Virus record (IMG/VR): IMGVR_UViG_3300045988_137242
DNA length: 64,000 bases
Strand: one strand, 5' to 3'
DNA from: a virus
In this document: positions 19,499 to 39,921 of the stretch, one piece after another
Layout: each line of letters starts with the position of its first letter
How positions within the stretch are numbered: the first letter of the stretch is position 1
Made by a program: the position numbers and the translations under genes
The notes under the pieces: generated by a model
Told to the model about the DNA's origin: nothing
Database searches by the model: none
The model's input: the letters and a program-made list of their open reading frames with translations, nothing else

Positions 19499-19544
19499 AG
19501 TATGTTAAAACGTTTAACAATTAATTAATAAGGACAATATCGAT

Positions 19545-20069: not shown

Positions 20070-21388
20070 TATATCAGGATGTGAATAATAATAATGGCAA
20101 TAACAATGGGAATGGTGTTGTTCAACAGCCAGTTCAGCCTCAGCAGCAGCAGCCTAATAAGGTTGCGATAAGTGAGCCTGCCCCTATGGTTCAACAGGCG
20201 GCTCAACAGAGTTTTGCCATGAATAATTTTTTCAATGGCGGCAATAGGGCGGTTGGCAGGTTTGAGAATCCGAATGTTGTGAATCCTCCTTTGGTGAATG
20301 CCGGTGAGAGTGTTCCTGAGCAGCCGAAGAATCCAGCTCCTGTGACAGATGAACCTTCTCATGCTCCGAGTTGGGAGGAGATGGACAACATGGCTCAGGA
20401 CAATGTCAACAATAGCAATGATGGTGGCGGCAGTAGTCTTTCTCTTTCGGATGTATTGAATGGAGGTAGTGGTAATGCAAGCCGTGACGAGAAGTCACAG
20501 TTTGTTGCGGAGCCAGAGAAGAAGGATGGTGGTTTCTTCAAGTGGATAAAGGGTCTGTTGCCGAAGAGCCGTCCGGGCATGAGGGAAGGCGAGACAGAGG
20601 ACGAGTATGACAGACGGAGGACACGTAACATGCAGATGGTGGCGACGCTTGCAGATGCGATACGCCATATCGGCAATATCGTGAATACATCGAAGGGTGC
20701 GACACAGCAGAAGTTCAATAGTCCAGTGGAGTTGTTGGAGCAGGGTTATCAGCAGCGTAAGGCAGAGCGTCAGAAGCAGGCGGCGTTGGATGCGGATGCG
20801 GCTTACAAGCTTGCGGATTTGAGTTTGAAGGAGAAGGCGGCAGAGGCTAACCGTTCGTATAAGGACTTCGCCAGACAGATGAATGTAGCTAAGTTCGGCT
20901 ATCAGCAGGCAAAGGATGAGGCAGAGCGAAAGCGCAGGGCAGAACGAGATGCGGAGAATAAGGACTATAAGGAGAGAGTTTTTGCGCACAGGAAGGAGCA
21001 GGATAAGATTTCCAATAGTTTAAGACAGCAGTCCATCAACAAGCGTGGCAGCGGTGGTGGAGGAAAGAAAGGCGGTTCCTCTTCGCATAAATACGTTACT
21101 TGGGATGCAGACGGTAATCCTCATTATGCAGAGAATAAGACGATGTATGAAGCCAATGAAGCCTATTACAACGGAAATACAGGAGGCAAGACCTCACGTT
21201 CGGTAAGCAAGGAGAACGTAACAAGCAAGGGCTTGGAGAGAGTTACAAACCGAACGTCCGGTCCATCTGTTGCTCAACAGGCAGGAGCACAGAGAAGAAA
21301 GCGTGATGAAGCGAGGAGAGCAGCCAAGCCAAAGCAGAAAGGCAAGAGTAGTGGTAAGAAAGGCTGGGCATCCGGTTTTAAATTATAA
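20066..21388 (+). CDS. low-complexity basic protein (internal virion protein candidate)
   Basis: 440 aa. ATGA overlap with the upstream gene. N/Q-rich N-terminus, K/R/E-rich centre, and a GGGKKGG tail. Confidence 0.6.
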   Translation: MIYQDVNNNNGNNNGNGVVQQPVQPQQQQPNKVAISEPAPMVQQAAQQSFAMNNFFNGGNRAVGRFENPNVVNPPLVNAGESVPEQPKNPAPVTDEPSHAPSWEEMDNMAQDNVNNSNDGGGSSLSLSDVLNGGSGNASRDEKSQFVAEPEKKDGGFFKWIKGLLPKSRPGMREGETEDEYDRRRTRNMQMVATLADAIRHIGNIVNTSKGATQQKFNSPVELLEQGYQQRKAERQKQAALDADAAYKLADLSLKEKAAEANRSYKDFARQMNVAKFGYQQAKDEAERKRRAERDAENKDYKERVFAHRKEQDKISNSLRQQSINKRGSGGGGKKGGSSSHKYVTWDADGNPHYAENKTMYEANEAYYNGNTGGKTSRSVSKENVTSKGLERVTNRTSGPSVAQQAGAQRRKRDEARRAAKPKQKGKSSGKKGWASGFKL

Positions 21389-21406: not shown

Positions 21407-24400
21407 ATGGCAATAGATAGAACGAAATTAAAGCAGATACACAATCTGTTGGCGCAGAACGGTTTTGCGCAGGACTATTCTACGTTTGAGAAGAAGTTTG
21501 CTGGTAATGCAAATTACGGCAACCGCAAGAAGGTTTATGACCTTATCACTGAGAATGGCGGTGATATAGGCGGTTCGTATGAAGATTTCATGAAAAGGAT
21601 TCAATCGAAGCCTCAGACTACTTCTCAGAGAGCGATGCAGTTTGGTGGTAGGCAGTTGCCGAAGCCTAAGCGTGCTCCGAGTAACGCTTCTCCATTCGTG
21701 CAGTCGCTGTATGCGAAGGATATGGCGGAGCGAGGTGAGCAGCAGCCTACGGACTATGTGAGCAAGAGAGAGGACTACACTTCTCCGAAGGCTGTTCAGA
21801 ACATGAGCAGGAGAAGTCAGATGGCAGGCAGGAATGCGGCTAAGTCGGCTGCAAAGGAGATAGACAAGCAGTATATGCAGTCGCAGCCAGTGATGAATAC
21901 AGGAACTCCGGCAGATGAGTATGTAGGCAAGACAGAGAGACAGTTGGAGAAGCAGATGAGTGATGCTGCAGACCAATTTGTGAAGAACAATATGAGTAGC
22001 TACATTGCAAATGCAGTCTCTGGAGAACAGGATGCAGCCTTGCAGCGAGCACTCAATGCTACAGACAATGTTCCTTCAATGGCAGGATTGGGAGGAATGG
22101 GTCTGATGGTGAAAGGCAAGACTTTCAACGAACAGGTAGACCCGGATTTGATGATAAAGAATCTTGAAGGGAACTTGGATAAGAACTTGCAGAATATCTT
22201 TTCCAATCCGCAGGTTGCACAGAAGATAGAAGCAGATGCAAGAAATCTTGGTGTTTCAGTAGATACATATATCCAACGTATAGTGCCAAGCTTGCGGAAT
22301 AGTCTTGCCAATGCTCTTAATGAATCGGAATATCAAAGAGCTTTGCCTAAGAATATGCTTGACAATGTAGCAAACAGATTTATCAATTCAAATACGTTGG
22401 GCAAGATGATTAGGCTTGCCACACAGACAAGGAGCCAGAGAGTCATGAACGAACAGGCTATGGCAGCAACGGCAGCAGGCGAGAATCCATATTACAAGAG
22501 CGGAGCAATAGAAAATGTTACGGCAGATGTTGGCGGTATGGTGCTTGATCCTGTTTTCGGTGGTGCCGCCAAGGGTGGTGCGATGGTAGCAGGCAAGTTG
22601 TTAGGCAGTGGAGCGAAAGCTGCAGCAGTAATGGCGAACGGCACGTTGGCGCAGCGTTTGGGTATGAAGGCTGCGCAGGCGGCGGTAGGTGGCGGAACAA
22701 CAGGTTTTTTATTTGATGCGACAAATTCCGTTGTTCAGAATTTCTCTACTGGTGAAGATACATCTTTGGGTAATACGTTGAAGACAGCAGTAACTGGCGG
22801 AGCAAAAGGTGCTGTGAATTTTGGCATTATGGGACTGACTGGAGTTCCTCTCGGAGAGCTTGGAAGAGGTGTCGGCATAAAGGCTGGCGGTTCATTCTGG
22901 GGTAATGTAGGAAGGGCGACAGGAAAGGTGAGCCTTGAAGCAGGCAAGACCTATATGGAAGCTATGGGAATGTATCTCGGCGGTTATGCAGTGGGTAAGC
23001 TTGAAGGAGCCAAGGATGCCAATGGCAAGCCTATAGAGTTTGACTTGTTTGACGGAACGTTGGAGAGTCTTCCTACGGCAATCGGTTTCCGTGTTCAGCA
23101 TGCACTTGGCGGTTTGAAGGGCGGCAGGAAGAATGCTAAGGGTGAAGATATAGGATGGTTGGGTTCTACTGTAGCGAACGTGAAGGAGTTTCTTACTTCC
23201 GACAAGGCGAAGACCTCGAACATGCTCATGAGCGAAGACGAGAGACAGCAGATATTCAATTCCGGGGCGCAGAACGGCGTGATGCGAGACGGAGAGAACA
23301 TAGTGAGCTATGCGAGGAGGACAAAGAAGAACAAACTCCACTATGATGATCCACGGACTTATGACGACCCTACAGGAAAGGAGAGCATAGAGTCAGACGT
23401 GGAGATGATGAAGAACACCTACGACCAGATAATGGCAGACCCGAAAGTATCTTGGGATGCAAAGGCGAAGTTCTCTGCAATGGTAATGGGTGTGATGCCC
23501 GATTCGCGTCCTATGATGGACTATTGCACGTTTACGACAGAGAAGGTAGGCGGTGACGAGGCAGGAGTGAAGAAGTATATCAACGAGTATTCTGCCGACG
23601 GTACGCTGTTGTCGAAGACAAGTTACGACAATGTAGACAAGAGAGAACAGGCGTTGTATAAGATGGCGATGACAAAGGAAGGTCAGAGGCTTTGGAACGT
23701 GATGGGTACGCTTGTGGGCATAGACAAGAACAACTATGACTACCAAAACGCTTTCTTTATGGAACGTGTGAAGGATGCGAAGGACGGTGCGGAGATACAG
23801 GCGTTTGCTGACGGAATGGGCACGAAGGGTTCGGCGGTGGAACAGGAGTTCACCAACTGGGTCTTGAACAACGGTTCGGTAATGAAGGCAATTGATGCGT
23901 TTGCCCAAGAGAGCGGCATGAAGAAAGAAGATGTTGTGAAGCTGATGAACAAAGACCCTTTGCACAGGACGGAGGAAGAGCAGCTGCTGTGCGTGAAGCT
24001 CCGCAGGGAGATGGAGAAACAGGCATTCCCTGCCGACAAGGTTCATGAGGAGCAGAGCAATCTGGAGGGTAAGGACGTAGCGGACGACAATAGCCTTGGT
24101 ACGGAGGAGCCTAATACAGGAGCCGTGGCAGAGCAGCTTGACAATCTCTCCAAGGCAGAAGAGGGTGTTGAGGCTCTGATGAGAGATAATGACGTGTTCG
24201 GAGACAACTTCAAGAAGATGCAGGAGGAGGGTATGACCAATCCTCAGATATACGACTGGATGATACAGAATGGCGGCATGACTCAGGAGCAGTTGAAGCC
24301 TTTTGCCGACTACATCAATGCCAATGCGAGGGTGCAGGGCATGCAGCAGCGGACGCAGCAGAAGATGGAGGAGCTTGTTGGCAAGGTGGTCCATGATTGG

Positions 24401-27400
24401 AGTTATCGAGGCACGATGAATGGTGTGAAGACCGATGGCGAACAGGTGCTGTTTGTCGAGGACAGGGACGGACGCAGACTGATGGTAGGTTCGGGTGATG
24501 TAGCCTTTGATTCCGTGACCGGCAGGGCGAAGGAAGATGTGGGCGATATGCTTGTATGTCTTGACCCGGAGACCAAGGAACTGGTGTATATGAAGGCAGA
24601 GGATGCCAAGTTTGTCGGTGTTCAGAATCCTGATGAATTTGCCAACGAGTATCGCCAAAAGTTGCAGGAGATAAACTCTCAGCCTTATAACGAGGCAATG
24701 CAGCGACAGGCAGAGCGTGATGCGGCGAAGAATCAGCAGGAAACGAATGAAGGAGAAACGAAGACGGAAGTGGCGGCACCCGAGACACCGATGCCGAAGG
24801 AAGATAATCCTGAATTATATAAGGTGGCAGATTCACTGCAAGGAAAAATCGGGCAGTCTTTGTCTAAGGATGAAGCGGATAGTCTTGTGTCTGAAATGGA
24901 AAATCGTGCCGAACCTGCAAGAGAATTGGAGTTAACACCAGAGAACTGGACTGCCGAATTTGGTGAAGACGGTAAGGTTGCAACCCCACTCGGCGAGGTA
25001 AAGATGGGAGAGAACCAATACTTTAAACTTGCCAAGGAGGGAAGAAACGGAAAACTTGGTTTGATTAAGCCTACATTGGAAGACCCAGATGTAATCATCG
25101 AGGATGCAAGTCAAGCTAAAGAAGGTCAAGTAACAGAACGTCATAGTTCATACTTGTTTGTAAAAGCATTCACTGGCAAGGATGGAAATCGTGTATATTA
25201 CTTTACTTCTGTTACGGTTAGCCGTGATGGAAAAGAGGTTGTAGTTTCCAACCAAGAAAGAAGAGCAAAACGAATTGCTACGGTAATGGAGAGTGGAAAG
25301 ATTCTATATTTAAAAGGAAATCAGTCTGCATCCGTTGCGCAGAACGAGAAGCCTGTTTCTCTTGGTGATTCGAACTCCTCTACTACTACAGGCAGTCAAG
25401 GAGCCTTGCACGGTATCAATTCACCTGATTTACATGGCAAAGATACGAACAATTCTTCAAACGGCAATGGGAATGAAGGAACTTTAACACATTCTGCTGC
25501 TTCTTACGAGAAGAATGACATACCTGTAGACAAGGACGGAGAGCCGGCTTACGAGCAGGTGCCGAAGGAAAGGACAGTAGAGGATTTGTTCGGCAAGCTT
25601 GGCGGTGACGGTAATCTTGCACATAGCTTTGCGGAAGCCAAGGTAGCGGAAGCAGAGAAGGAGCGGAAGGCTTTGTTGAAGAAAGAGCCTAAGATGGGAA
25701 CCAAGATAAACGAGTATCTGAAGAAGAAGCGTGAGCATGATGAAGCTGTCAAGGCAGCAGAGGCAAAGGTTGCCTACTGGAATGACGTGAAAGGTGAGAT
25801 AGAGAAGCTGACACACACCACCCCTGAAGAGCTGAAGGAGCAACAGGCAGAGCTTGAAGGTACTGCAGCTACGGCAGAGCACAAGGCGTTGTATGGCGAG
25901 GGTCAGCCAGCAGACGGCACCGCTCTTGCAGCGAAGTTCGTTGCTGATGCCAAGATAACGCCAGAGAGTTTCAAGAAAGAGACAGGTTTCGGTACAGCAG
26001 AGCAGGCAGGTTTCGTGGGCATGATAGCCAAGGAAGAGAACGGCGGCAAGTCTATAGAGCGTCTTGCCGAGGACTTGGTGTACTATGACAACACGGAACA
26101 TAACGGTACGTACTTCCACGGCGACACCAACGAAGCGAGAAACGCCATCATCTCAGCCTTGGGTGCAGCGAGAACCCGTAAGGGACTCCGAGAGCTTGCC
26201 CAGCCCGACCTTGCGAAGTTTGAGAGTGAGCGAGCACAGGAGCGAGACAATGCTTATCATGAGGCTTACGGTATGGATTATGAAGAATATTTGGCATATT
26301 CTGAGCAGGAAATGCCTCATATATTAGAAAAAATAAATAACTTTGACGAGGAAAAGTATCTGCAAGACAAGGCAGAGGAGATTACGAACCAAATAGATAA
26401 AGAACATGGAAAAGCAATTGGAAGAGATGAGTCCGCAGGAGAAGAGCCAGTATATGGTGAAGGCGATAAAGTTCTGCCTGGCACACGGACTGATGAGCGA
26501 GGAGGAGGTGAAAGCCCCGAAGAACATGCAGGAAGAACGGAAGCTGAGCGCAGAAGCGATACTGAAAATGCGGCTCTACCAGAAGAAGCATCCTCAGGAG
26601 CCGGAAGAGTAGATGAGCGGCAGAAAGAAGTTGATGAGGCAGTGAAGCATGTAGCCACTGAGATAACGAAACAGACAGGTATTGAAGTGGTTACTGACGA
26701 GCGTGAGGGTCAGAGTGCTTTGGAGAGAGGTTTGCAGGTAGACAATAGCGTTAGAGAGCATAGAGCTTCGGCAGGCAGTACGATAGCAGGCATGCAACTG
26801 TTGCCAAAAGAACTGCGTATGAACGAGAGTGTGCTTACTGACCAGATATTGAACTATCATGGTGACTACATAGGCAAACTTCTTGAAAATGCTCAAGAAG
26901 ATTCGTCCGTATCATACTTCTCCGCTCATGATGGCAAATGGTACTTCTACAGCGTTGATAAAGACAGGAACATAAACATCTTGGATGCCGTAGAAGCATC
27001 AAGAGAAAACTTCGATTTATTTAAAGATAAACTGAAAGAATATGGATTTGACGGAAAATCAACAGCTCTTCGTAATGCTTTGTCGTCGTATGGCTACATC
27101 GGACGAACAGACAGCGATTTGCTTAAGTCTTTTCTCGCTGGAGGAACACAAAGCCGCAGTAGATTTCGTGATGGAGAGACTTCGGAAGGGAGAAGAGCCG
27201 ACAGAAATAGAGTGGCTGGAGAAGCTGACGGAACTCAATCTGAAGGCGATACGCAAGAAGCGAGGGAAATAAGGCAGTTCCGCACCAAGGATGGTGAGGT
27301 GTATGGCTTTACTGTAGACGGCAAGATATATCTTGACACGAAGAAGATGAAGCCGGAAACACCTCTGCATGAGTATACGCACTTGTGGACGGAGGCTTTG

Positions 27401-30400: not shown

Positions 30401-33400
30401 GTGGCGAATATCATAGACCGCATAAAGCAGCATCTTGACGCAGGGCGCAAGGTGGTGATATTCCACCGCAGGACAGAGACGAAGACTCCGATAAAGCCAC
30501 CGTTCGCCTATATGCTTGAAGTTGCCAACAAGGAAATCTCTCTGATGCGACCGGGCAAGGAGAGGGAAGAGTATATCCGGGAGGTGAATGCTTTCCGCAA
30601 GGAGCATGCCGGGCTGTTGCAATGGGAGAAGACCTTGGACTACAGTATGCCGAGAGAGCAGCTTGCCAAGGTGTTCGGCAAGAACAACGTGCTGTTCTTC
30701 AGTGGCAAAGAAAGCAAGACGGTGAAGGATAAAGCCGTAGATACGTTCAACGACGACAATAGCGGCAAGAATATCATTGTGATACAGGAGGCGAGCGGCA
30801 AGGAAGGAATCTCTCTGCACGACACGACAGGCAAGCATCAGCGAGTATGTATAACGCTTGGTCTGCCTCAGAGCCCAATCACGGCATTGCAGATAGAGGG
30901 ACGCACGTACCGAATCGGCAACAAAAGTAATGCCATCTTTGAATATCCGGTATTGGGTTTGAACTCTGAGATGATGCTGTTTGGCGAGAAGTTCAACAAT
31001 CAGGTGTCAACGACAGAGAATCTTGCACTTGGCAGTCAGGCGAGAAACTTGCGAGAGAGCTTTGCTAAAGGTATACTGGAGCATAGCGGAGTAGTACCTA
31101 TTGACCAACAGGGAGTCGGCGGCAAGGAATTTGACGCACCAAAGCAAGGTGACAGTGATCCGTTTGATGATGCCGTGCTTGACTACTACAGCAACCAGAA
31201 GCTCAACAGGAAGAACCGAGAAGGTGTGGACTATTTTCCAACGCCGGAGCCACTTGGCTACAAGATGATGGAATGGGCAAGAGCCGGAGAGGGCGACACT
31301 ATATTGGAGCCAAGTGCCGGACATGGAGCTATAGCAAGGTATGCGCCCAAGGAGAACCAGTTGACAGGAATAGAGCCAAGTCAGAGCCTGTTCGCCAAGT
31401 TGCAGTTGAAGGCAGGAGGTTTGGGCAGGAAATTCATGAACACCGTGTTTGAGAACTACGACATAAGCAACAAGCACGACGTAGTTGTAATGAATCCACC
31501 GTTCGGTACGGCAGGAGCGACAGCGATAGCCCATCTCGACAAGGCTTTCAAGCACTTGGAGGAAGGCGGTAGAGTAGTAGCCATAATACCGAGAGGCAGC
31601 ACCGACAAGAAGTTTGACAAATGGCTGGACGGACAGAAGAACGTTGCCATGCGTGCAGAGGTAGACCTACCCGACATAGTATTCCAGCAGGCTGGAACAT
31701 CGGTAGTGAGCCGTGTTGTGGTGCTCGACAAGATAACGGATGCGGCATTGCGCAGCAAGGCAGGCAAAACGGAGCGTATAGACCTTAGCGGACGCTATGA
31801 CAAGATAGAGGATTTCTTTGAGGAGCTGAGAAATATAGAGATGCCTGAGCGAATCATAGACACGCAAGCCAAGATGCAGAAGAAGGCGAAGGCGGCAAAG
31901 ACCAGTATCAAGGAGATAAAGGGTGTAAGAGACGTGAAGCTTGACAAGAACGGCATTTTGGTAAGCATGCGAGGTGACTGGATGGACTACGGCATCAGTT
32001 TCTCGGGCAGCGACAAGCCTCAATATTGGAGAGAGAAGATGTCAAACTTCTACGAGAAGTATGAGGAGTTGGAGAAATCAGCCTTCAACGAAGACAAGAA
32101 AGCTGTATTCAGCGAGATGAAAGAGCTTAGCTGCAAGCTTGCCGGAATGACCGAGGACGAGATGCAGAGATATATAGCAGGTCGCAGGAACAGTGGCGAA
32201 CAGGATGGTGTTCATTTCAGAACAGAGGAAGATATAGAGGATGTTAACAAGAGGTTCAATGAGCGTCTTGAAAGTCTGAAAGCTGACCCTAAACAAAAGG
32301 GTGGAGAACTGAAACTTGGATATCCGGGTACATTCTTAAAAGATGCAGGATTTGGTGACAGCGAAATTGTTTTGGAATATGCCAAGATAGAAAGAAAGTC
32401 ATCGGAGGAATACAAGAATGACCATCCTTTTGATGTTGAAGATATAAAGGATTTGCCGAAAGCCATAAATACCCCTATTGCCGTATTTGATAATACAAAC
32501 GGGAAAGAGGCAGGAAAGACAATTCTTACAGAGCTGCAAAAGGACGGAAAGAATTTTATTGTTGCTATACGTGCAGCAGAACGTCGTCAAAAGGGTGGAA
32601 TAGTTTTGGAAGTAAACGAAATAAAAACTTTGTTCCCGAAAGAGGCACGTGGAATCGTAAATTGGTTTAACACGGGTAAGACCTGTAATGTAGACAAAGA
32701 AAAAGCCCTCACTTGGTTAGGGGCCCTCCGCACCCATCGCGGAACCTGGCTAACCGAGCAAGAGCTTTCTTCTGCCACAAATGTAGTGAAAGATTTTGAT
32801 ATAGAAAAGCGCAAGTCGCTGAATTTTCGCATAGGGGACAATAAAACCGAAAAACAGAACAATTCTGTTGCGACAATATCAGAAGATGCGCCAGTAGTGG
32901 TGAAGCATGTGGACAGAGTGTCGAAGGAGACAGGAGTGAAGGTGAACATGGTGCAGAGCGCAGAGGAAGTGAACAGTCCGAGAGTGAAGAAAGCCATAGA
33001 GGATGGCAAAGAGGTTACAGGCTGGTATGACGAAAGGACAGGCGAGGTGCATCTGTATATGCCGAATATCCATGACCGGTATACCGCCGAGAAGACCATC
33101 TGGCATGAGACGGTAGGACACAAGGGCATGCGTGGATTGATGGGCGAGCAGTTTGACAAATTCCTTCGTGACATGTGGTATGACCTTGACAAGCCCGAGA
33201 ATGCGGAGCTGAAGAAGCTCGTGGACGAAGAGAGGAGACGCAATCCTCTGAATATCTATGATGCCATAGAGGAAGGGATAGCGAGACTTGCCGAGGAAGG
33301 CAGAGGCGAGCCGGGCTTTTGGCGAAATATCAGAAACAAGGTGACGGACTTCTTCCGTGAGATAGGCTACAGGATAGCACCGAACACGAAGGACGTGAAG

Positions 33401-36400
33401 TATCTGTTGTGGCTGAGCAAGAACCTACAGAAGAATCCTAACGATGTGTTCTACAAGATGAGGGCAGAAGCCGTGAGATGGCGACTGGACCATGAGGCAG
33501 TACCCGATGTGATAGAGGCGAACGGCATGTTCTTTGACAATGACGGGAAGAATCGAGAATACGTGCTTGACTTGAGCCAAAAGGACTTTGAGCAGGCTAC
33601 AGACGGTAAGATACATTTCAGGACATCACCAGCCACGGCATCCAAGATAGAAGAGTATAACAGACGACTTGAAGGGAAAATCTACTCAGCCAAGGAGAGT
33701 ACGGTGGACTATATGCAGTCTGTGCAGGAGTATATGGAAACCGTATCGGGAAAGAAGAATGTGGCAAGAGACATCCCGTCTTCTTGTAATCCGCTGCAAG
33801 CTGAAAACAGAAGCAGTAGTATAAGTCAGAAGAAATGCGATAGATACGACAGGAAGTATATGACTCCTCTTGATGATGTTTTCAAGAAAGTTATTTCGTA
33901 TGTGGATGGAAAGAACAGCGATTTCCAGAAGCAGAATACGGAGCTTTATATGATTATGAAGCATGGACTGGAGAGAAATCGAGTGTTCTTTGTGCGCGAC
34001 CGTATCGGAGAAAATCTGAGAGAGGAAATAAAGAGCATAAGGGAAGCTGCTGAGCAACAGCCAGAACCGAAGAAATGGGAACGCACAGAGACAGAGAAGG
34101 CGAAGATGAAAGCAGATGCTCTGTCAAAAGAGTGGGAACAGAAGTTTGGTGAGCTGAGCAAAGACTTGGAAGATGGCAAGCTACAGCTTGACGAATACTA
34201 CGGACAGATGGACGAGTGGATTCGCAGTAAGATATACGAGGAGTATGAATCCACCAAATATGACTACTCCGGTCTTACTGATATTATCAAGAACACTAAA
34301 GACTGGAAGAGTGATGCCGACATCATAGAAAAGGTAAAGGATGTAGAGAAGAAAATCAATGACGGGAAGAGCGGATTGGTAAAGGAATTCTGGGAGAAGA
34401 AGAGAGCCGCTACCGATGCTATCATAGATTCGGAATACGATTCGGGTAAGATAGACAAAGATTCGGCGGCGCACTTCAAGAGTATGTTCAACTGGTATGT
34501 GCCATTGAGAAAGTTCAATGAGACTACCGCCGAGGATGTATACGGTTATATCACAGAGAGCGGCGACCCCAGTCAGTATATAGGTTCTGTCATAGCCAAG
34601 GCGAACGGACGAAAGAGCCTTAGCGATACCAATGTGATGGCTCAGATATTTGCGATGGCGAAAAGTTCCATAATAAGCGGAGAGAAGAATATTGTGAAAC
34701 AATACTTCGCAAGATTCGTGGAGGCTTACGAGACAGGCGAAGCACAGGAAAAGGTTTTTGTAGAGATACATCCTTGGGCTGAAAGGCATGTCGTTGACGG
34801 CAAAGAAGTGTGGGAAGAGGTATATCCACAAGTGCCAGAGGATGCCACCCAGCATGAGATAAGCGATATATTACAGACTTTTGAAGACAAGATGCGGGCG
34901 AAGGAGGCTTTGGGCGAGGCAAGGCTATTGACACGTAGAGGCAGTGTCGGCTACAAGTTTCAGCGTGAGAAAAACAAGAATGAGCATATAGTAGAGGTGT
35001 ATATTGCCGGTAAGAAGCGTATGTATTTCTGTCAAGGCAACCCACGGGCAGCCCAAGCGATAAACGGTCTGTTGCACGATTCTGGAACGTCAAAAGGCAA
35101 GCTGTCGGCATGGATTTCAAAGAAGTCGTCATCCATCAACAGGACATGTGCGCAGCTGAACACGTCATACAACCCGGACTTCTTCTCCTCCAACATGGTA
35201 CGAGACTTTACTGTGTCATCCGCAATTCTTGTCAAGGAAGGACCGAAATACGCAAAGAGGTTCTGTAGGGAGTATTACAACAACTTGAAGTTCCTCAATG
35301 GTGAGGACAGCTATTGGAAGATGCTCGGCAAGTATAACAATGACAAGATAGACGAAAGCAACACACGTCAGAAGTACTTCAAGGAGTTCATGGACAATGG
35401 CGGTCAGACAGGTTTCGTGCAGCTTGAGAAGCTTGAAAGAGTCATTAAGGAGTATAACAACCTTGTAAAGACAGGCAAGAGAGACGCTGACGGATGGTTT
35501 GCGAGAGCTTTGAAGAAGGCGGGATTCATCGAGATCGCTAACGAGACGTTTGAGAACATAGCGAGATATTCATGCTACGTGACATCAAGAGAGTCTGGGC
35601 GAAGTATAGGACGAAGTGTATATGATGCAAAGGAAGTTTCGGGCAACTTCAATAGGCACGGAAGCGGAGATGCCATCAGTACTTTGAAGACAGCGAATGA
35701 CAGTAAGTCGGACGTGGCGTTCAGAAATGTAGTCGGCTTCTTCAACAGCTACATGAAGAATCACACGATGTTCTACAATGCTGGTGTGCAGGGTGCGAAC
35801 ATGTTGTTTAAGAACTATAAGTTTGCTCCTGTGGCAACGGCAATGTCGTTAGGTGTGATGCCGTTTGCCTTGAATATGGCAATCGCTGCGATAAACCAGT
35901 TTTTGATGGGCATAGAAGACGAGAAGAAGCGAGGTGGCGTGAAAGACCCTTATGCCGAGTTGCCAGAGTGGAAACGAAGGAACAATATCAACATCTATAT
36001 ATTTAGAGGTCATTTCTTCACGTTGCCGTTAGGTATAGAGTTGAGAGCCTTTTACGGGCTTGGCGATGTAGCCTTGGCACATAGCTTCTATGATGGTTTG
36101 AAGAGTGACACTCCGATAGGATATGACATACTCGGACAGTTGGCGCAGCTGGTACCAAGTTCTGACTTTTTGGGGCATCATGCTCCGGGCGACAATACAA
36201 CAGACGCATTGAAGGATGTAGCACTTGCTGTAACACCAACAGCACTGAAGGCTGGTGGTGAACTTGTAGCTAACAGAGACTGGACGGGGCGACCGATATA
36301 CCGAGACCAGACCTATCTTGACATAGCTCCAAGATGGAAGCGAGCTTATGACAGTACGAATGAAGCGTTTGTAAAAGTTAATAAGTTGGCAAACAAATGG

Positions 36401-36997
36401 ACTGCGGATATGCCGGATGCGACGGAAGATATGAAGGGTAATGATGCGGCAGACTTTTGGACAGCCCCTTACGGTTGGCAGCACATGATGGAAGGTTATG
36501 TTGGCGGTATGGGAGCTACCATAGGCAGAGTGGCTAAGACAGGATATGCCGTAGGCAAAAGCCTTAAGGCTGGATATAATGGCGAGAATGCTATCAAGGA
36601 TGCTTATGCCGAATGGGAGAAGTTTGACAAGAATCAGATACCATTATACCGAAACTTCATCTATACTTCCACCGAGGGGCATGACATGCAGAGAACGAAG
36701 TCGAAGTGGTACAACTATACAGATGAGCTACGGCAGACGAAGTATAACTTAGACCAGTTGAAGACCAATACTCCCGACTTGAAGTTAAACTTGGAGAACG
36801 AGGCTAAGAAGTATAAGTTCAGTCAAGGCAAGGAGGGTCGGAGGCTTGAAATATGGAATGCTGCAAATAGTTATATCGGCAAGAAGAAGAATCTTCTGAA
36901 GAAGACCTCAGACCCAGAGGTAATAAAGTCGATAAATAACGACATCAATCTTAAGATGCAGGAAGCCGTGAGGGATTTGGATAAGTTGAGTGAGTAG
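21407..36997 (+). CDS. giant polyvalent protein (5196 aa): hydrophobic Gly-rich region, two HExxH modules, SNF2-type helicase, N6-adenine DNA methyltransferase, large C-terminal region
   Basis: One uninterrupted 15.6-kb frame.
- Helicase motifs: GTGTGKTYT (nt ~29264), DECH (29549), SATP, QIEGRTYRIGN (~30890).
- MTase motifs: LEPSAGHG (~31305) and NPPF (31493).
- HExxH motifs: HEYTH (27368) and HETVGH (33104).
This architecture parallels phage/conjugative-element polyvalent proteins and P1 DarB. Confidence 0.85.
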   Translation: MAIDRTKLKQIHNLLAQNGFAQDYSTFEKKFAGNANYGNRKKVYDLITENGGDIGGSYEDFMKRIQSKPQTTSQRAMQFGGRQLPKPKRAPSNASPFVQSLYAKDMAERGEQQPTDYVSKREDYTSPKAVQNMSRRSQMAGRNAAKSAAKEIDKQYMQSQPVMNTGTPADEYVGKTERQLEKQMSDAADQFVKNNMSSYIANAVSGEQDAALQRALNATDNVPSMAGLGGMGLMVKGKTFNEQVDPDLMIKNLEGNLDKNLQNIFSNPQVAQKIEADARNLGVSVDTYIQRIVPSLRNSLANALNESEYQRALPKNMLDNVANRFINSNTLGKMIRLATQTRSQRVMNEQAMAATAAGENPYYKSGAIENVTADVGGMVLDPVFGGAAKGGAMVAGKLLGSGAKAAAVMANGTLAQRLGMKAAQAAVGGGTTGFLFDATNSVVQNFSTGEDTSLGNTLKTAVTGGAKGAVNFGIMGLTGVPLGELGRGVGIKAGGSFWGNVGRATGKVSLEAGKTYMEAMGMYLGGYAVGKLEGAKDANGKPIEFDLFDGTLESLPTAIGFRVQHALGGLKGGRKNAKGEDIGWLGSTVANVKEFLTSDKAKTSNMLMSEDERQQIFNSGAQNGVMRDGENIVSYARRTKKNKLHYDDPRTYDDPTGKESIESDVEMMKNTYDQIMADPKVSWDAKAKFSAMVMGVMPDSRPMMDYCTFTTEKVGGDEAGVKKYINEYSADGTLLSKTSYDNVDKREQALYKMAMTKEGQRLWNVMGTLVGIDKNNYDYQNAFFMERVKDAKDGAEIQAFADGMGTKGSAVEQEFTNWVLNNGSVMKAIDAFAQESGMKKEDVVKLMNKDPLHRTEEEQLLCVKLRREMEKQAFPADKVHEEQSNLEGKDVADDNSLGTEEPNTGAVAEQLDNLSKAEEGVEALMRDNDVFGDNFKKMQEEGMTNPQIYDWMIQNGGMTQEQLKPFADYINANARVQGMQQRTQQKMEELVGKVVHDWSYRGTMNGVKTDGEQVLFVEDRDGRRLMVGSGDVAFDSVTGRAKEDVGDMLVCLDPETKELVYMKAEDAKFVGVQNPDEFANEYRQKLQEINSQPYNEAMQRQAERDAAKNQQETNEGETKTEVAAPETPMPKEDNPELYKVADSLQGKIGQSLSKDEADSLVSEMENRAEPARELELTPENWTAEFGEDGKVATPLGEVKMGENQYFKLAKEGRNGKLGLIKPTLEDPDVIIEDASQAKEGQVTERHSSYLFVKAFTGKDGNRVYYFTSVTVSRDGKEVVVSNQERRAKRIATVMESGKILYLKGNQSASVAQNEKPVSLGDSNSSTTTGSQGALHGINSPDLHGKDTNNSSNGNGNEGTLTHSAASYEKNDIPVDKDGEPAYEQVPKERTVEDLFGKLGGDGNLAHSFAEAKVAEAEKERKALLKKEPKMGTKINEYLKKKREHDEAVKAAEAKVAYWNDVKGEIEKLTHTTPEELKEQQAELEGTAATAEHKALYGEGQPADGTALAAKFVADAKITPESFKKETGFGTAEQAGFVGMIAKEENGGKSIERLAEDLVYYDNTEHNGTYFHGDTNEARNAIISALGAARTRKGLRELAQPDLAKFESERAQERDNAYHEAYGMDYEEYLAYSEQEMPHILEKINNFDEEKYLQDKAEEITNQIDKEHGKAIGRDESAGEEPVYGEGDKVLPGTRTDERGGGESPEEHAGRTEAERRSDTENAALPEEASSGAGRVDERQKEVDEAVKHVATEITKQTGIEVVTDEREGQSALERGLQVDNSVREHRASAGSTIAGMQLLPKELRMNESVLTDQILNYHGDYIGKLLENAQEDSSVSYFSAHDGKWYFYSVDKDRNINILDAVEASRENFDLFKDKLKEYGFDGKSTALRNALSSYGYIGRTDSDLLKSFLAGGTQSRSRFRDGETSEGRRADRNRVAGEADGTQSEGDTQEAREIRQFRTKDGEVYGFTVDGKIYLDTKKMKPETPLHEYTHLWTEALKKKNPEEWENVKKLFDEVEGLKDEVQKLYPEQEGDALYDEMIATYSGREGTKKLEAVVRELAAKNGSGVAESVKEQGFIYKVKEALQKYWKGVADMLHIHFTTAEEVADKVLADWAKGVNPKEEKVDEKKEAVKAEEPKLPLNPIERTALEYHEEKVGAARKAYEEAKASGDESEMKRTRDEFKKALDDKLKAQGVGLVQRRKEIANELGKEEAEKIDKPWKDMDGEERMAVAEQNPLTEEEIRNKTSEENQDLIEDAIDYLNGNHGFAQQIAYLKIYDDVRNRHENVSGDSGTGDRTQLDAANTTGGEGLGLGRGRESGGPDGPVDRGAGNEAASGERTGGESGKDNPTLPVGKQGDKQGEGSPSGMGGLSAGGADATGGGAVSGDGHVSDGSGRGGVDRSSKPDARRKPAAKQGTTWRNRTGAEIKQEAKEAKEGLKAALKEMLKRGRGEASISLTGLNSRQIEYVPELMKAVKRYGMSLIDQGIYKVKDWMNNIREGIYDDMKAIGFTDKDIDDFIEEMWNSKMPMDGETHTIAEWSTIYGNAQLRKKLSEKLGEKYERQMAAEPIAVKVGDRKNIEETLPFLLPQQQEDVLKAETQFFGNEHADREHAYGKGYLFTNGTGTGKTYTGLGIAKRLAKQGKGRILFVTPSQKKVNDWMKDGKNLGLDIRDLDSWAKERGTTATTESGEGMVITTFANFGLNKKLLETEWDAVIYDECHRIMENKKGAETARSMQHYMMTNRDENHCFLRLQETNKDYQKMRLASEKFDEERSNEIGRIMREYKESHPEARTKDVINATYKLQPKELNSFAPADAAKFPKLGKAYQEFMSAKEHYYKDVEPKLREQAKNTWKKTKTIFLSATPFNTRENLDYVEGYIFKYPEMSDDGMNGRTRFYLDHFGAAYKYRYHRLEQTVSNPDAIAKQEVAFSDYLQNTLGTMSGRIIDSPYDYSRDFPTVSPDHAEEFNIAVQDAVRGRYLGSAYRKTIGEYNYGSALFETMKVANIIDRIKQHLDAGRKVVIFHRRTETKTPIKPPFAYMLEVANKEISLMRPGKEREEYIREVNAFRKEHAGLLQWEKTLDYSMPREQLAKVFGKNNVLFFSGKESKTVKDKAVDTFNDDNSGKNIIVIQEASGKEGISLHDTTGKHQRVCITLGLPQSPITALQIEGRTYRIGNKSNAIFEYPVLGLNSEMMLFGEKFNNQVSTTENLALGSQARNLRESFAKGILEHSGVVPIDQQGVGGKEFDAPKQGDSDPFDDAVLDYYSNQKLNRKNREGVDYFPTPEPLGYKMMEWARAGEGDTILEPSAGHGAIARYAPKENQLTGIEPSQSLFAKLQLKAGGLGRKFMNTVFENYDISNKHDVVVMNPPFGTAGATAIAHLDKAFKHLEEGGRVVAIIPRGSTDKKFDKWLDGQKNVAMRAEVDLPDIVFQQAGTSVVSRVVVLDKITDAALRSKAGKTERIDLSGRYDKIEDFFEELRNIEMPERIIDTQAKMQKKAKAAKTSIKEIKGVRDVKLDKNGILVSMRGDWMDYGISFSGSDKPQYWREKMSNFYEKYEELEKSAFNEDKKAVFSEMKELSCKLAGMTEDEMQRYIAGRRNSGEQDGVHFRTEEDIEDVNKRFNERLESLKADPKQKGGELKLGYPGTFLKDAGFGDSEIVLEYAKIERKSSEEYKNDHPFDVEDIKDLPKAINTPIAVFDNTNGKEAGKTILTELQKDGKNFIVAIRAAERRQKGGIVLEVNEIKTLFPKEARGIVNWFNTGKTCNVDKEKALTWLGALRTHRGTWLTEQELSSATNVVKDFDIEKRKSLNFRIGDNKTEKQNNSVATISEDAPVVVKHVDRVSKETGVKVNMVQSAEEVNSPRVKKAIEDGKEVTGWYDERTGEVHLYMPNIHDRYTAEKTIWHETVGHKGMRGLMGEQFDKFLRDMWYDLDKPENAELKKLVDEERRRNPLNIYDAIEEGIARLAEEGRGEPGFWRNIRNKVTDFFREIGYRIAPNTKDVKYLLWLSKNLQKNPNDVFYKMRAEAVRWRLDHEAVPDVIEANGMFFDNDGKNREYVLDLSQKDFEQATDGKIHFRTSPATASKIEEYNRRLEGKIYSAKESTVDYMQSVQEYMETVSGKKNVARDIPSSCNPLQAENRSSSISQKKCDRYDRKYMTPLDDVFKKVISYVDGKNSDFQKQNTELYMIMKHGLERNRVFFVRDRIGENLREEIKSIREAAEQQPEPKKWERTETEKAKMKADALSKEWEQKFGELSKDLEDGKLQLDEYYGQMDEWIRSKIYEEYESTKYDYSGLTDIIKNTKDWKSDADIIEKVKDVEKKINDGKSGLVKEFWEKKRAATDAIIDSEYDSGKIDKDSAAHFKSMFNWYVPLRKFNETTAEDVYGYITESGDPSQYIGSVIAKANGRKSLSDTNVMAQIFAMAKSSIISGEKNIVKQYFARFVEAYETGEAQEKVFVEIHPWAERHVVDGKEVWEEVYPQVPEDATQHEISDILQTFEDKMRAKEALGEARLLTRRGSVGYKFQREKNKNEHIVEVYIAGKKRMYFCQGNPRAAQAINGLLHDSGTSKGKLSAWISKKSSSINRTCAQLNTSYNPDFFSSNMVRDFTVSSAILVKEGPKYAKRFCREYYNNLKFLNGEDSYWKMLGKYNNDKIDESNTRQKYFKEFMDNGGQTGFVQLEKLERVIKEYNNLVKTGKRDADGWFARALKKAGFIEIANETFENIARYSCYVTSRESGRSIGRSVYDAKEVSGNFNRHGSGDAISTLKTANDSKSDVAFRNVVGFFNSYMKNHTMFYNAGVQGANMLFKNYKFAPVATAMSLGVMPFALNMAIAAINQFLMGIEDEKKRGGVKDPYAELPEWKRRNNINIYIFRGHFFTLPLGIELRAFYGLGDVALAHSFYDGLKSDTPIGYDILGQLAQLVPSSDFLGHHAPGDNTTDALKDVALAVTPTALKAGGELVANRDWTGRPIYRDQTYLDIAPRWKRAYDSTNEAFVKVNKLANKWTADMPDATEDMKGNDAADFWTAPYGWQHMMEGYVGGMGATIGRVAKTGYAVGKSLKAGYNGENAIKDAYAEWEKFDKNQIPLYRNFIYTSTEGHDMQRTKSKWYNYTDELRQTKYNLDQLKTNTPDLKLNLENEAKKYKFSQGKEGRRLEIWNAANSYIGKKKNLLKKTSDPEVIKSINNDINLKMQEAVRDLDKLSE

Positions 36998-37024: not shown

Positions 37025-37058
37025 GAAGAGCGAGCTTAATGCTCACTCTTCTCTTTAT
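37025..37058 (+). terminator. intrinsic terminator after the giant ORF
   Basis: Stem GAAGAGCGAGC/GCTCACTCTTC (10 of 11 bp), loop TTAAT, followed by TCTTTATT. Confidence 0.55.
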
Positions 37059-37705: not shown

Positions 37706-37947
37706 TTGTTGTAATATTCTCTATATTTTTCACTATAACATATATGGCATGGTGTTTTATACATGTCTATAGCTTCTTTTTTTGTAAGCTTCATAACAAT
37801 ACCACTGCAATTCCTTAATCCCTTGCAATACTCTGTCCTGTGGAATCTTCTTGAATATCCTCCAGTACATATATACACATTATCTGCACAAGACGACAGA
37901 GTTATAACTCCTAAGAGTACATAAAATAATAAGACTGATTTCTTCAT
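37702..37947 (-). CDS. Cys-rich small lipoprotein (paralog of 40469-40675)
   Basis: 81 aa from MKKSVLLFYVLLGVITLSSC (lipobox). Shared core VYICTGGYSRRFH ... C.GL.NC ... TPCHICY. Confidence 0.6.
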   Translation of the reverse strand: MKKSVLLFYVLLGVITLSSCADNVYICTGGYSRRFHRTEYCKGLRNCSGIVMKLTKKEAIDMYKTPCHICYSEKYREYYNK

Positions 37948-39538: not shown

Positions 39539-39549
39539 GAGGATTGGTT

Positions 39550-39909: not shown

Positions 39910-39921
39910 GGTGAGAAAGAG

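What the first reader, a model, noticed from the sequence alone, without database searches (positions are those of the whole stretch)
21407..36997. 5196-aa single-ORF polyvalent protein occupying a quarter of the window
One uninterrupted frame of 15,591 nt encodes at least six recognisable parts:
- a Gly/Ala-rich hydrophobic region;
- two nuclease-like alpha/beta modules;
- two minimal HExxH modules;
- a long disordered G/S/D-rich linker (28268-28650);
- an SNF2-type helicase;
- a gamma-class N6-adenine methyltransferase, followed by a ~1200-aa C-terminal region with hydrophobic helices (e.g. 35822-35915).

Multidomain polyvalent proteins of phages and conjugative elements are an established concept. 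They are co-delivered with DNA to disarm host defences. This one is exceptionally long, and most of its length (roughly residues 1-1100, 1300-1950, 2000-2550 and 4000-5196) matches nothing I can recognise.

It follows three small low-complexity proteins in one operon, like the internal-core/ejection gene sets of podoviruses.
Basis: partly seen in the sequence, partly recalled or inferred. Interest (0 to 1): 0.85.

Follow-up and report, generated by a model that had tools for sequence, protein, structure and literature searches.

The report
Giant polyvalent protein of gut phage
This is a real 5,196-residue gene of a gut Prevotella/Segatella-type phage. It belongs to the already described class of giant multi-enzyme "polyvalent" proteins that phages are thought to pack into the virion and inject with their DNA, and it is mid-sized within a large, so far undescribed family of Bacteroidales phages.

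Summary
The ORF at 21407-36997 is real: 5,196 codons, no internal stop, under purifying selection. About 40 viral contigs carry intact orthologues of 4,688-6,478 aa. Pfam finds PBECR2, an SNF2/Strawberry-notch-like helicase, MuF-C and LPD38. An N6-adenine methylase is recognised by its invariant TP…NPPF motifs and methylase family hits. These are signature domains of phage-type polyvalent proteins (Iyer et al. 2017).

The C-terminal ~1,350 aa is homologous to the C-terminus of the "DarB-like" giants of Bcep22-like, Ralstonia GP4 and Stx phages. Proteomics has found those proteins in virions.

- The length is not exceptional.
- The second metal motif is HExxxH, not HExxH.
- The C-terminus contains a recognised domain (LPD38).
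- The helicase precedes the methylase, the reverse of P1 DarB.

New here:
- The family has a frame-plus-payload layout. An N-terminal domain locked to residue 1 and the C module are conserved.
- Two internal bays hold swappable cassettes. One 376-aa in-frame cassette separates this protein from a relative that is 91% identical upstream of the cassette and 99% downstream.
- The N module (1-1150) and the C module have no match among solved structures.

Verdict: a new member of a known kind; moderate interest.

The parts
21407..36997 (+). Giant polyvalent-protein gene, 5,196 codons plus stop
   Evidence: intact orthologues in about 40 viral contigs; dN/dS 0.03-0.27
21407..21601 (+). N-terminal ~65-aa domain made of two ~30-aa repeats (aa 1-65)
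   Evidence: In 55 of 55 representative proteins of at least 2,000 aa that carry it, it starts within the first 15 residues. The repeat unit is visible in small proteins. No Pfam match.
21407..24856 (+). Conserved N module (aa 1-1150), including the Gly/Ala-rich stretch at aa 370-560 (22514-23086)
   Evidence: Present in 25 of 41 relatives; many invariant residues. No Pfam, PHROG or PDB match. AF2 pLDDT 61.5 and no significant Foldseek PDB match.
24962..25309 (+). PBECR2 domain, predicted BECR-fold RNase (aa 1186-1301), in variable bay 1
   Evidence: Pfam PF18810, E 2.3e-9, 38 bits against a cut-off of 27.1
26648..27775 (+). 376-aa in-frame cassette (aa 1748-2123) that is absent from the nearest relatives; it carries an unknown module and the HEYTH module
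   Evidence: L058 and L023 align at 91% over aa 1-1747 and 99% over aa 2124-5196, with nothing in between. The cassette starts at the end of the linker aa 1683-1748.
27269..27766 (+). HEYTH module (aa 1955-2120), zincin-like by motif only
   Evidence: H, E and H are invariant in 10 sequences. The same module sits downstream of the methylase in L047, L050 and L053. No Pfam or PDB match.
28235..28732 (+). Long G/S/D/E-rich linker (aa 2277-2442)
   Evidence: sequence
29174..31006 (+). SNF2 / Strawberry-notch-like helicase (about aa 2590-3200)
   Evidence: ResIII 2.8e-12, DEAD, AAA_34, Helicase_C; motifs invariant in the family
31214..31741 (+). Gamma-type N6-adenine DNA methyltransferase (about aa 3270-3445)
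   Evidence: TP motif, EPSAGHG and NPPF are invariant. PHROG DNA methyltransferase families. Aligns to the P1 DarB methylase at 27% over 194 aa.
32402..32707 (+). MuF_C domain (PBECR clade), aa 3666-3767, in variable bay 2
   Evidence: Pfam PF18819, E 7e-18; shared by only about 9 of 41 relatives
32894..36994 (+). Conserved C module (aa 3830-5196). It contains the HETVGH motif (aa 3900-3905), the hydrophobic helix aa 4811-4829 (35837-35893) and LPD38 at aa 4847-5046 (35945-36544).
   Evidence: Present in 36-40 of 41 relatives. LPD38 E 6e-22. phrog_14770. Homologous to the C-termini of the Stx-phage, GP4 and Bcep22-like giants. 63 BFVD fold matches and none in PDB.
18538..19281 (+). Upstream 247-aa Ala-rich protein with a TM-like segment at aa 25-47
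   Evidence: syntenic upstream of the giant in 20 of the 43 related loci searched
19545..20069 (+). Upstream 174-aa charged, coiled-coil-like protein; its stop overlaps the next start (ATGA)
20066..21388 (+). Upstream 440-aa N/Q/G/K-rich protein; it ends 18 nt before the start of the giant
   Evidence: syntenic in 25 of the 43 related loci searched; marginal similarity to BF1-TP2 gp69

Best explanation
The ORF encodes a phage-type polyvalent protein of a temperate-type Bacteroidales (most likely Segatella/Prevotella) phage.

Shown here:
- The gene is real and under selection.
- It has a fixed frame: a ~65-aa domain locked to the N-terminus, an N module (aa 1-1150) and a ~1,350-aa C module containing LPD38.
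- A payload lies between the frame parts. It is a helicase-then-methylase pair plus two bays, about aa 1150-2200 and 3600-3830.
- In this phage the bays hold PBECR2, an unknown module, a HEYTH module and MuF-C. In relatives they hold ddrB-ParB, LPD3, InPase, kinase, ART, SLT and other PBECR domains.
- The modules are separated by hydrophobic-poor linkers.

Inferred:
- Like its C-terminal homologues in Bcep22-like and Stx phages, the protein is loaded into the capsid and leaves through the tail with the DNA.
- The terminal frame provides loading and exit. It may also contribute to envelope crossing, together with the three small upstream proteins.
- The SNF2-methylase pair translocates on and methylates the entering DNA to blunt restriction, working like DarB.
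- The BECR-type RNase domains attack host or defence RNAs.
- The two zincin-like His motifs cut the chain at the linkers or cut host targets.

The confidence of 0.6 is for the whole statement. That it is a real polyvalent-protein gene is about 0.95. That it is packaged and ejected is about 0.65. That the terminal modules are the loading and exit frame is about 0.45.
For: Real gene:
-.

Polyvalent class:
- Pfam PBECR2, MuF_C, LPD38 and SNF2. The methylase is called from invariant motifs and PHROG methylase families.
- Iyer et al. list LPD38 and PBECR2 as phage-only and describe an HEXXXH variant of the metallopeptidase.

Phage context:
- Portal, terminase-like gene, tail fibres, RecT and Ant.

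Homology of the C module to giants found in virions:
- tblastn at 25% identity, E 1e-16 to 1e-10, to Stx phages, Ralstonia GP4 and Burkholderia BcepMigl/CSP3.
- JC1 gp69 (4,515 aa) was found in CsCl-purified virions by mass spectrometry.
- phi24B gp47 was found in virions and proposed as an ejection protein.
- BFVD fold matches to the C-terminal parts of many phage giants.

Frame plus payload:
- Coverage profile across relatives.
- Bays with different Pfam domains.
- The 376-aa cassette difference from a relative that is 91% identical upstream and 99% downstream of it.
- The HEYTH module sits at other positions in relatives.
- Among 54 representatives of at least 3,500 aa that share the N-terminus, 38 have the C module, 35 of them at the very C-terminus. 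Only 10 have the helicase-methylase core.
- BF1-TP2 gp68 keeps the C module but has no helicase-methylase core.

Needed for infection in a relative of the class:
- The 2,198-aa polyvalent protein of PTXU04 is a 'Fit' gene by CRISPRi-ART.

Enzymes intact:
- Catalytic motifs are invariant in the family.
Against: - There are no virion proteomics, structures or genetics for this phage lineage, so packaging and ejection rest on homology of about 400 C-terminal residues at ~25% identity.
- The morphology of the lineage is unknown.
- The protein has no lytic transglycosylase, unlike several ejection-type giants. Only one relative has an SLT domain.
- It has a single strongly hydrophobic segment, so a membrane-channel role is weakly grounded.
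- The zincin assignment of both His motifs rests on invariant residues and the predicted strand-helix pattern only. There is no Pfam or PDB match, and the AF2 confidence there is low.
- The domain order is the reverse of P1 DarB and similarity to DarB is weak. An anti-restriction role is therefore an analogy.
Confidence: 0.6

Rival explanations
1. A purely accessory anti-restriction cargo, like P1 DarB. It would be packaged and injected but dispensable, with no role in particle assembly or DNA delivery. The N and C modules would serve only as packaging tags.
For: - Helicase plus N6A methylase with intact motifs.
- Relatives in cultured phages are annotated 'DarB-like antirestriction'.
- The payload domains are typical conflict effectors.
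Against: - The most conserved parts are the about 2,500 aa of N and C modules, not the enzymes.
- Only 10 of 54 related giants keep the helicase-methylase core.
- The LPD38-bearing protein of PTXU04 is needed for plaque formation.
- One relative carries an SLT domain, which is typical of envelope-crossing proteins.
Confidence: 0.2
2. A prophage-encoded defence or superinfection-exclusion protein that acts in the lysogen and is not packaged. SNF2 plus methylase plus nuclease resembles DISARM-, BREX- or MADS-type systems.
For: - C-module homologues lie on 100-480-kb Bacteroidales contigs, that is, in prophages.
- PADLOC gives domain-level hits: mad2 at E 1.7e-14 and PbeA at 7e-9.
Against: - The PADLOC hits cover only the methylase fold (160 aa) and the helicase P-loop region (about 110 aa). 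No system-specific component matches.
- The gene lies with virion genes and is translationally close-coupled to conserved upstream genes.
- Homologues were found in virions.
Confidence: 0.07
3. A tail tape-measure-like or other external tail protein that has picked up enzyme domains.
For: - It is the largest gene.
- It has a Gly/Ala-rich stretch.
- It is preceded by small genes.
- No tape-measure gene was recognised elsewhere in the window.
Against: - At the usual ~1.5 Å per residue (my own knowledge), 5,196 aa would give a tail of about 780 nm.
- Length varies from 4,688 to 6,478 aa among close relatives through cassette gain and loss. That does not fit a length ruler.
- phi24B gp47 is absent from the external virion density.
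- No sheath, tube or tape-measure gene is annotated in BF1-TP2.
Confidence: 0.05
4. An assembly or annotation artefact: several genes fused by sequencing errors.
For: Two related contigs (L028, L038) have one in-frame TAG each.
Against: - 39 other contigs have the intact frame.
- The two TAGs are at different sites, each replaces a conserved sense codon inside the helicase, and the frame continues unchanged after them.
- dN/dS is low across the linkers and the unknown parts.
Confidence: 0.02

Closest known systems
Phage-type polyvalent proteins (Iyer, Burroughs, Anand, de Souza, Aravind 2017, PMC5512222)
   Same: - Many unrelated effector domains in one chain.
- Hub domains SNF2 and N6A-MTase, and probably a metallopeptidase.
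- The phage-only domains PBECR2 and LPD38.
- Encoded next to virion genes.
- Orthologues differ by domain shuffling.
   Different: About three quarters of the chain is not covered by the Pfam families derived from that work: the N module, aa 1300-1950, aa 2124-2590, and most of the C module outside LPD38.
P1 DarB (2,255 aa; anti-restriction, packaged in the head)
   Same: - A gamma-type N6A methylase with the TP…NPPF motifs.
- An SNF2-like helicase in the same chain.
   Different: - DarB has the methylase first (aa 88-274) and the helicase after it (aa 836-1523). Here the helicase precedes the methylase.
- Similarity is only 27% over 194 aa.
- No LPD36 was detected.
- DarB has no LPD38-type C module.
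'DarB-like' giants of Bcep22-like phages (JC1 gp69, 4,515 aa), Ralstonia GP4 and Stx phages (phi24B gp47, 2,811 aa)
   Same: - A homologous C-terminal region (aa ~4577-4988 here) that includes LPD38.
- The gene follows two smaller virion-protein genes.
- It takes up about a fifth of the genome.
   Different: - Proteobacterial hosts.
- Other N-terminal parts (LPD5, LPD1, SLT).
- Identity is about 25%, over roughly 400 aa only.
Bacteroides phages BF1-TP2 gp68 (3,633 aa), BKO1-TP3 and BS-TP4 (Gut Microbes 2025, PMC12694917)
   Same: - The same phage lineage: portals are 31-36% identical.
- The same gene order upstream in BF1-TP2, the only one examined.
- C modules 25-28% identical over 42-49% of the 2,596-aa query, that is, most of the C module.
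   Different: - BF1-TP2 gp68 has no helicase-methylase core and no N module.
- The paper does not discuss these proteins.
Helicobacter prophage jhp1044 polyvalent proteins
   Same: Orthologues differ by extensive domain rearrangement. Here the parallel is two bays whose content changes, and a module found at different positions in different relatives.
   Different: A different domain set (four PBECR plus ddrB-ParB), much smaller proteins, and no LPD38 frame described.

Membership tests
Phage-type polyvalent proteins (Iyer et al. 2017) | Several unrelated catalytic or binding domains in one polypeptide, including hub domains (SNF2 ATPase, N6A methylase, PBECR/MuF-C) | tested here: met
   PBECR2, SNF2-type helicase, MuF_C and LPD38 pass Pfam cut-offs. 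The methylase is shown by motifs and PHROG families.
Phage-type polyvalent proteins (Iyer et al. 2017) | Domains restricted to the phage subset (LPD38, PBECR2) | tested here: met
   Both are present and are listed as phage-only in the paper.
Phage-type polyvalent proteins (Iyer et al. 2017) | Encoded by a phage with a portal-terminase system, among virion genes | tested here: met
   Portal phrog_156 at E 6.5e-51, terminase-like gene, tail-fibre genes
Phage-type polyvalent proteins (Iyer et al. 2017) | Zincin-like metallopeptidase with HEXXH or HEXXXH plus a downstream Glu | tested here: inconclusive
   HEYTH and HETVGH, with downstream Glu residues, are invariant. The predicted strand-hairpin then helix pattern fits. 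No Pfam or PDB match was found and the two modules are unrelated by hhalign.
Phage-type polyvalent proteins (Iyer et al. 2017) | Packaged in the virion and delivered with the DNA | not testable with these tools
   Known only for homologues
P1 DarB family (methylase-helicase dyad) | EcoKI/TaqI-like gamma-class N6A methylase with a TP motif and NPP(Y/F) | tested here: met
   TPEP at aa 3279-3282, EPSAGHG at aa 3301-3307, NPPF at aa 3363-3366, invariant in the family
P1 DarB family (methylase-helicase dyad) | Order LPD36 - methylase - SNF2 helicase (methylase N-terminal to helicase) | tested here: not met
   The helicase (aa 2590-3200) precedes the methylase (aa 3270-3445). No LPD36 hit. In DarB the methylase is at aa 88-274 and the helicase at aa 836-1523.
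P1 DarB family (methylase-helicase dyad) | Protection of incoming DNA from type I restriction | not testable with these tools
   An experimental property
LPD38-type giant virion proteins (Bcep22-like, GP4, Stx phages) | Homologous C-terminal region with LPD38 at or near the C-terminus | tested here: met
   LPD38 at E 6e-22; tblastn hits to these phages; BFVD fold hits
LPD38-type giant virion proteins (Bcep22-like, GP4, Stx phages) | Peptidoglycan-cleaving domain (SLT / LT_GEWL) in the same chain | tested here: not met
   None in this protein. One relative has SLT. This feature is frequent in the group but not universal.
LPD38-type giant virion proteins (Bcep22-like, GP4, Stx phages) | Detected in purified virions | not testable with these tools
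   Shown for JC1 gp69 and phi24B gp47 only
Anti-phage defence systems with SNF2 plus methylase (DISARM, BREX, MADS) | Full-length match to system-specific components, with partner genes nearby | tested here: not met
   PADLOC gives only partial domain-level hits. The neighbours are phage virion and low-complexity genes.

The most novel reading that the evidence does not exclude
The position-locked N-terminal domain with the N module, together with the ~1,350-aa C module, form a self-contained loading-and-exit frame. Neither matches any solved structure. Bacteroidales phages would use this frame to carry an exchangeable payload of anti-defence enzymes through the tail. The Gly/Ala-rich stretch and the three small upstream proteins would build the envelope-crossing conduit. 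If so, the family would be a natural cargo-delivery scaffold with two defined insertion bays.
Probability: 0.25. Interest if true: 0.6.

Novelty: new member of a known kind. Interest (0 to 1): 0.35.

Why it matters
- Giant polyvalent proteins take up about a fifth of these genomes, yet how they are loaded, arranged in the capsid and expelled is still open. The phi24B authors list it as an open question.
- This family gives about 40 natural variants with the same frame and different payloads. One pair, 91% identical upstream and 99% downstream of the indel, differs by one 376-aa cassette. That marks where foreign domains are tolerated.
- C-module relatives occur in many Bacteroidales genomes (183 confirmed stretches). 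They are therefore probably a common part of the arms race between gut phages and their hosts.
- Cultured relatives exist in which packaging and function could be tested.

Tried and rejected
- **Nucleotide search of GenBank phages:** megablast of the ORF found no match.
- **N-terminal 2,600 aa against phages:** one weak hit only, to BF1-TP2.
- **N module against the 5.8-billion-protein index:** 2-3 partial hits only, alone or as a 20-sequence profile. That index returned almost only fragments, none longer than about 2,350 aa.
- **Pfam on ten 640-aa windows and ten shorter unknown segments at E up to 10:** nothing beyond the five known domains.
- **NCBIfam:** only a partial helicase hit.
- **PDB by sequence:** nothing, either with the two halves or with family profiles of the N module, C module, HEYTH module and HExxxH module.
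- **Foldseek of both AF2 models against PDB:** no match below E 0.18. Only weak SH3/Tudor-like hits for a small barrel in the N-module model; I place it at about aa 1001-1073 from the model's strand pattern, but the search gives no coordinates.
- **Are the two His-motif modules related?** hhalign probability 0.5%, so rejected.
- **Pfam on 15 members of both His-motif modules:** no peptidase family.
- **Homology of the 440-aa upstream protein:** marginal to BF1-TP2 gp69 (E 0.012) and absent to the Ruegeria 45A6 counterpart.
- **Programmed readthrough at the in-frame TAGs of L028 and L038:** rejected. They lie at different sites and each replaces a conserved sense codon, Arg in L028 and Gln in L038.
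- **Structured RNA in the 264-nt gap upstream of the 174-aa gene:** z-score 0.1.
- **Rfam and tRNA scans of the window:** nothing.
- **Sigma-70 promoter scan:** uninformative, and this promoter type does not apply to Bacteroidota anyway.
- **Piya et al. 2017 on P1 Dar packaging:** the paper could not be read.
Full report
**1.

The window has one ORF from 21407 to 36997 on the + strand. It starts with ATG, has 5,196 codons and no internal stop. It is not a chance frame.

A scan of IMG/VR with the helicase-methylase part returned 43 loci. Of these, 39 carry one uninterrupted orthologous frame of 4,688-6,478 aa inside the fetched DNA, and two more have a single in-frame TAG.

Against the nearest relative (contig 3300045988_121962, locus L058), dN/dS is 0.03-0.27 in every 250-codon block. 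That includes blocks with no recognisable domain. Only the 127 codons after the indel reach 0.49.

**2. What is recognisable**

Pfam finds:
- PBECR2 at aa 1186-1301.
- ResIII/DEAD/AAA_34 at aa 2601-2736 and Helicase_C/Helicase_C_4 at aa ~3076-3182.
- A weak methyltransferase hit at aa 3329-3396.
- MuF_C at aa 3666-3767.
- LPD38 at aa 4847-5046.

PHROGs places the helicase-methylase part in phrog_10691 and phrog_5143, and aa ~3870-5192 in phrog_14770. All three are of unknown function.

The catalytic motifs are invariant in all aligned family sequences (37-41 of the 41 aligned rows). These are GTGTGKT, DE[CS]H and QxEGRxxRxG of the helicase, and TPEP, EPSAGHG and NPPF of the methylase. The TP…NPPF pattern is the one Iyer et al. 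give for the EcoKI/TaqI-like gamma-class adenine methylases of polyvalent proteins.

Together these domains cover roughly a quarter of the chain. The rest gave nothing in:
- Pfam, even in short pieces at E up to 10.
- NCBIfam.
- PDB sequences.

**3.

- The first metal motif is HEYTH (aa 1988-1992). The second is HETVGH (aa 3900-3905), which is HExxxH. H3900, E3901, H3905, G3907 and a downstream EE (aa 3955-3956) are invariant across relatives as distant as Bacteroides phage BF1-TP2.
- Iyer et al. describe exactly such an HEXXXH variant of the polyvalent-protein metallopeptidase. I could not confirm a zincin fold. There was no Pfam or PDB match for either module, also with family profiles. The AF2 confidence at the motif is low, and the two modules are not related to each other.
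- The length is not exceptional. The protein is mid-range in its own family. Representatives that share its N-terminus reach 6,927 aa. JC1 gp69 has 4,515 aa, and a 12,242-aa polyvalent protein is cited in the literature.

**4. Context**

The window is a phage. It has:
- A portal (phrog_156, E 6.5e-51) and a terminase-like gene.
- Tail-fibre-like genes.
- RecT, an SbcC-like nuclease and an anti-repressor.

The portal matches only the three cultured Bacteroides temperate phages BS-TP4, BKO1-TP3 and BF1-TP2, at 31-36% identity. Each of these also carries a C-module homologue; BF1-TP2 gp68 (3,633 aa) is the only one whose full size I read.

The closest cellular records for the C module are Segatella copri, Candidatus Segatella violae and Leyella stercorea, at 41-45%. 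In all, 183 confirmed stretches lie almost entirely in Bacteroidales genomes, many on contigs of 100-480 kb, which means prophages. A partial N-module homologue is labelled Segatella copri. The host is therefore most likely a Prevotellaceae member.

The morphology of this lineage is not known. The paper on the cultured relatives gives no micrographs for them. No sheath, tube or tape-measure gene is annotated in BF1-TP2.

**5. Anatomy from comparison: a frame with two payload bays**

Coverage of the window protein by 41 relatives is as follows:

| Region (aa) | Relatives covering it |
|---|---|
| 1-1150 | 25 |
| about 1200-1950 | 2-9 |
| 2200-3600 | 36-40 |
| 3600-3800 | 9-15 |
| 3850-5196 | 27-40 (at least 34 as far as aa 5150) |

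In relatives the two poorly shared stretches hold other polyvalent-protein domains. In 38 bay segments these were:
- ddrB-ParB in 16.
- LPD3 in 8.
- InPase in 6.
- LPD14 in 4.
- MuF_C in 3.
- One each of SLT, PBECR1, PBECR2, PBECR3, Kinase-PolyVal, ART-PolyVal and a second methyltransferase.

The two nearest relatives are 91% identical over aa 1-1747 and 99% over aa 2124-5196, and they lack aa 1748-2123 altogether. This 376-aa in-frame piece begins where a hydrophobic-poor linker ends. It carries an unknown module plus the HEYTH module. In L047, L050 and L053 the HEYTH module sits downstream of the methylase instead.

Synonymous divergence to L058 is mosaic. It is 0 over the last ~1,200 codons, 0.03-0.11 in the middle and up to 0.59 around PBECR2. 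The gene therefore recombines between close relatives.

**6. The frame extends beyond this family**

An exhaustive profile search with the first ~665 positions found 212 representative proteins, 51 of the best 150 being at least 4,000 aa long.

The first ~65 residues are two copies of a ~30-aa unit. In all 55 representatives of at least 2,000 aa that have this domain, it starts within the first 15 residues. It also occurs as 2-4 tandem copies in small proteins.

Of 54 representatives of at least 3,500 aa:
- 38 have the C module, 35 of them at the very C-terminus.
- Only 10 have the helicase-methylase core.

BF1-TP2 gp68 likewise keeps the C module without the core. So the helicase-methylase pair is itself payload, and the ends are the constant part.

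**7. Structure**

- **C module.** AF2 on aa 3850-5049 with 31 sequences gave pLDDT 65 and pTM 0.58, mostly helical. Foldseek found nothing in PDB (best E 0.3). It found 63 matches at E ≤ 1e-3 in BFVD, the listed ones largely C-terminal pieces of other phage giants. These include proteins labelled LPD38, LT_GEWL and RelA/SpoT, and one from Ralstonia phage Alix.
- **N module.** AF2 with 19 sequences gave pLDDT 61.5. Confidence was good for aa ~180-360 and 670-1110 and poor for the Gly/Ala-rich aa 370-606. PDB search gave only weak SH3/Tudor-like hits; from the model's strand pattern I assign them to a small barrel at about aa 1001-1073.

Neither frame module has a relative of known structure.

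**8. Link to proteins with experimental data**

The C module at aa ~4577-4988 aligns at ~25% identity (E 1e-16 to 1e-10) with the giants of several phage groups:
- Stx phages, annotated 'LPD5 domain-containing protein'.
- Ralstonia GP4, annotated 'DarB-like antirestriction'.
- Burkholderia BcepMigl and CSP3.

Experimental data on members of this class:
- JC1 gp69 of the Bcep22 group was the second-highest-scoring protein in the mass-spectrometry table of purified virions.
- phi24B gp47 (LPD5, LPD1, LPD38, MuF-C) is abundant in virions but absent from the external density. Its authors propose it as an ejection protein.
- The 2,198-aa polyvalent protein of coliphage PTXU04 is needed for efficient plating.

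In JC1, Ruegeria 45A6, BF1-TP2 and this window, the giant follows a small gene and a ~440-510-aa gene. Sequence homology of these small proteins beyond Bacteroidales phages was not detectable.

**9. Mechanism, with steps marked**

Shown:
- A selected, intact gene with frame-plus-payload modularity.
- Intact helicase and methylase motifs.
- C-terminal homology to virion-associated giants.

Inferred from that homology and from the literature:
- The protein is loaded into the capsid and leaves with the DNA.

Inferred from position and conservation only:
- The N-terminal domain and the N and C modules mediate loading and exit. They may also help cross the envelope, together with the 247-aa protein, which has a TM-like segment, and the 174- and 440-aa proteins.

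Inferred by analogy with DarB and the model of Iyer et al.:
- The SNF2 motor moves the methylase along the entering DNA to pre-empt restriction.
- PBECR2 and MuF-C act as RNases on host or defence RNA.
- The His-motif modules cut the chain at the linkers or cut host proteins.

**10. Membership**

- The protein meets the tested criteria for phage-type polyvalent proteins.
- It should not be filed as a DarB orthologue. The helicase precedes the methylase, the reverse of DarB. No LPD36 was found, and similarity is 27% over 194 aa.
- The helicase-then-methylase block also occurs in 'DarB-like' proteins of Serratia phage Parlo and Pseudomonas phage Skulduggery, at 34-36% over ~880 aa.
- Parts of the block match 2,026 plasmids, most of them conjugative. 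Only five plasmids cover at least 80% of it, the best being a 63.6-kb Aquimarina plasmid (36% identity over 86% of the query). The other listed plasmid hits cover only the methylase region.
- A defence-system reading is not supported.

**11. Verdict**

The finding is real and correctly classified in outline, but it is an ordinary-sized member of a known class. What is worth keeping:
- A large Bacteroidales-phage family with a conserved, structurally uncharacterised frame.
- An N-terminal domain locked to position 1.
- Two clearly delimited payload bays, with a natural one-cassette difference between near-identical phages.

Noticed in passing
window 21407-21601; proteins P0084, P0103, P0109, P0134, P0205: The first ~65 aa of the giant are two copies of a ~30-aa unit (consensus roughly LYDALKADG…(T/S)YEEF). 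The same unit occurs 2-4 times in tandem in small proteins that have signal- or lipoprotein-like N-termini. It also occurs once next to a protein-kinase fragment. No Pfam family covers it.
   Followed up: partly
L028:11024-11026 and L038:10130-10132 (IMG/VR contigs 3300045988_104950 and _082671): One in-frame TAG in each orthologue, inside the helicase. One replaces a conserved Arg codon and the other a conserved Gln codon, and the frame continues unchanged afterwards. The sites differ, so a sequencing error or a recent nonsense mutation is more likely than programmed readthrough.
   Followed up: partly
window 37802-37878 and 40529-40605: A 77-nt inverted repeat (73% complementary). By my own reading of the DNA (not run through a tool), it lies within two small, divergently oriented paralogous genes for Cys-rich proteins with lipoprotein-like signal peptides (MKKSVLLFYVLLGVITLSSC… and MRKIILLFSIIVCLSSC…). 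These genes flank the four-gene block 38187-40467.
   Followed up: partly
window 21407-36997 compared with L058: Mosaic divergence within one gene. The last ~1,200 codons are identical to contig 3300045988_121962. The PBECR2 region has dS 0.59 and dN 0.16. This points to recent recombination inside the ORF.
   Followed up: yes
window 44511-44555 and 45041-45085: A 45-nt direct repeat (87% identity) spaced 530 nt apart, inside two adjacent minus-strand ORFs (43491-44762 and 44786-45289) near the tail-fibre genes.
   Followed up: no
window 37055-37705 (minus strand): A 216-aa ORF convergent with the giant, with no Pfam or PHROG match. It is conserved only in the two nearest contigs. BF1-TP2 has a convergent gene annotated as DnaJ-like at the same position.
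   Followed up: no
window 19282-19544: A 264-nt gap between the 247-aa and 174-aa genes, with a G-rich then C-rich composition (runs such as CCCCCCCCACCCC). Its predicted RNA folding is no better than shuffled sequence.
   Followed up: yes
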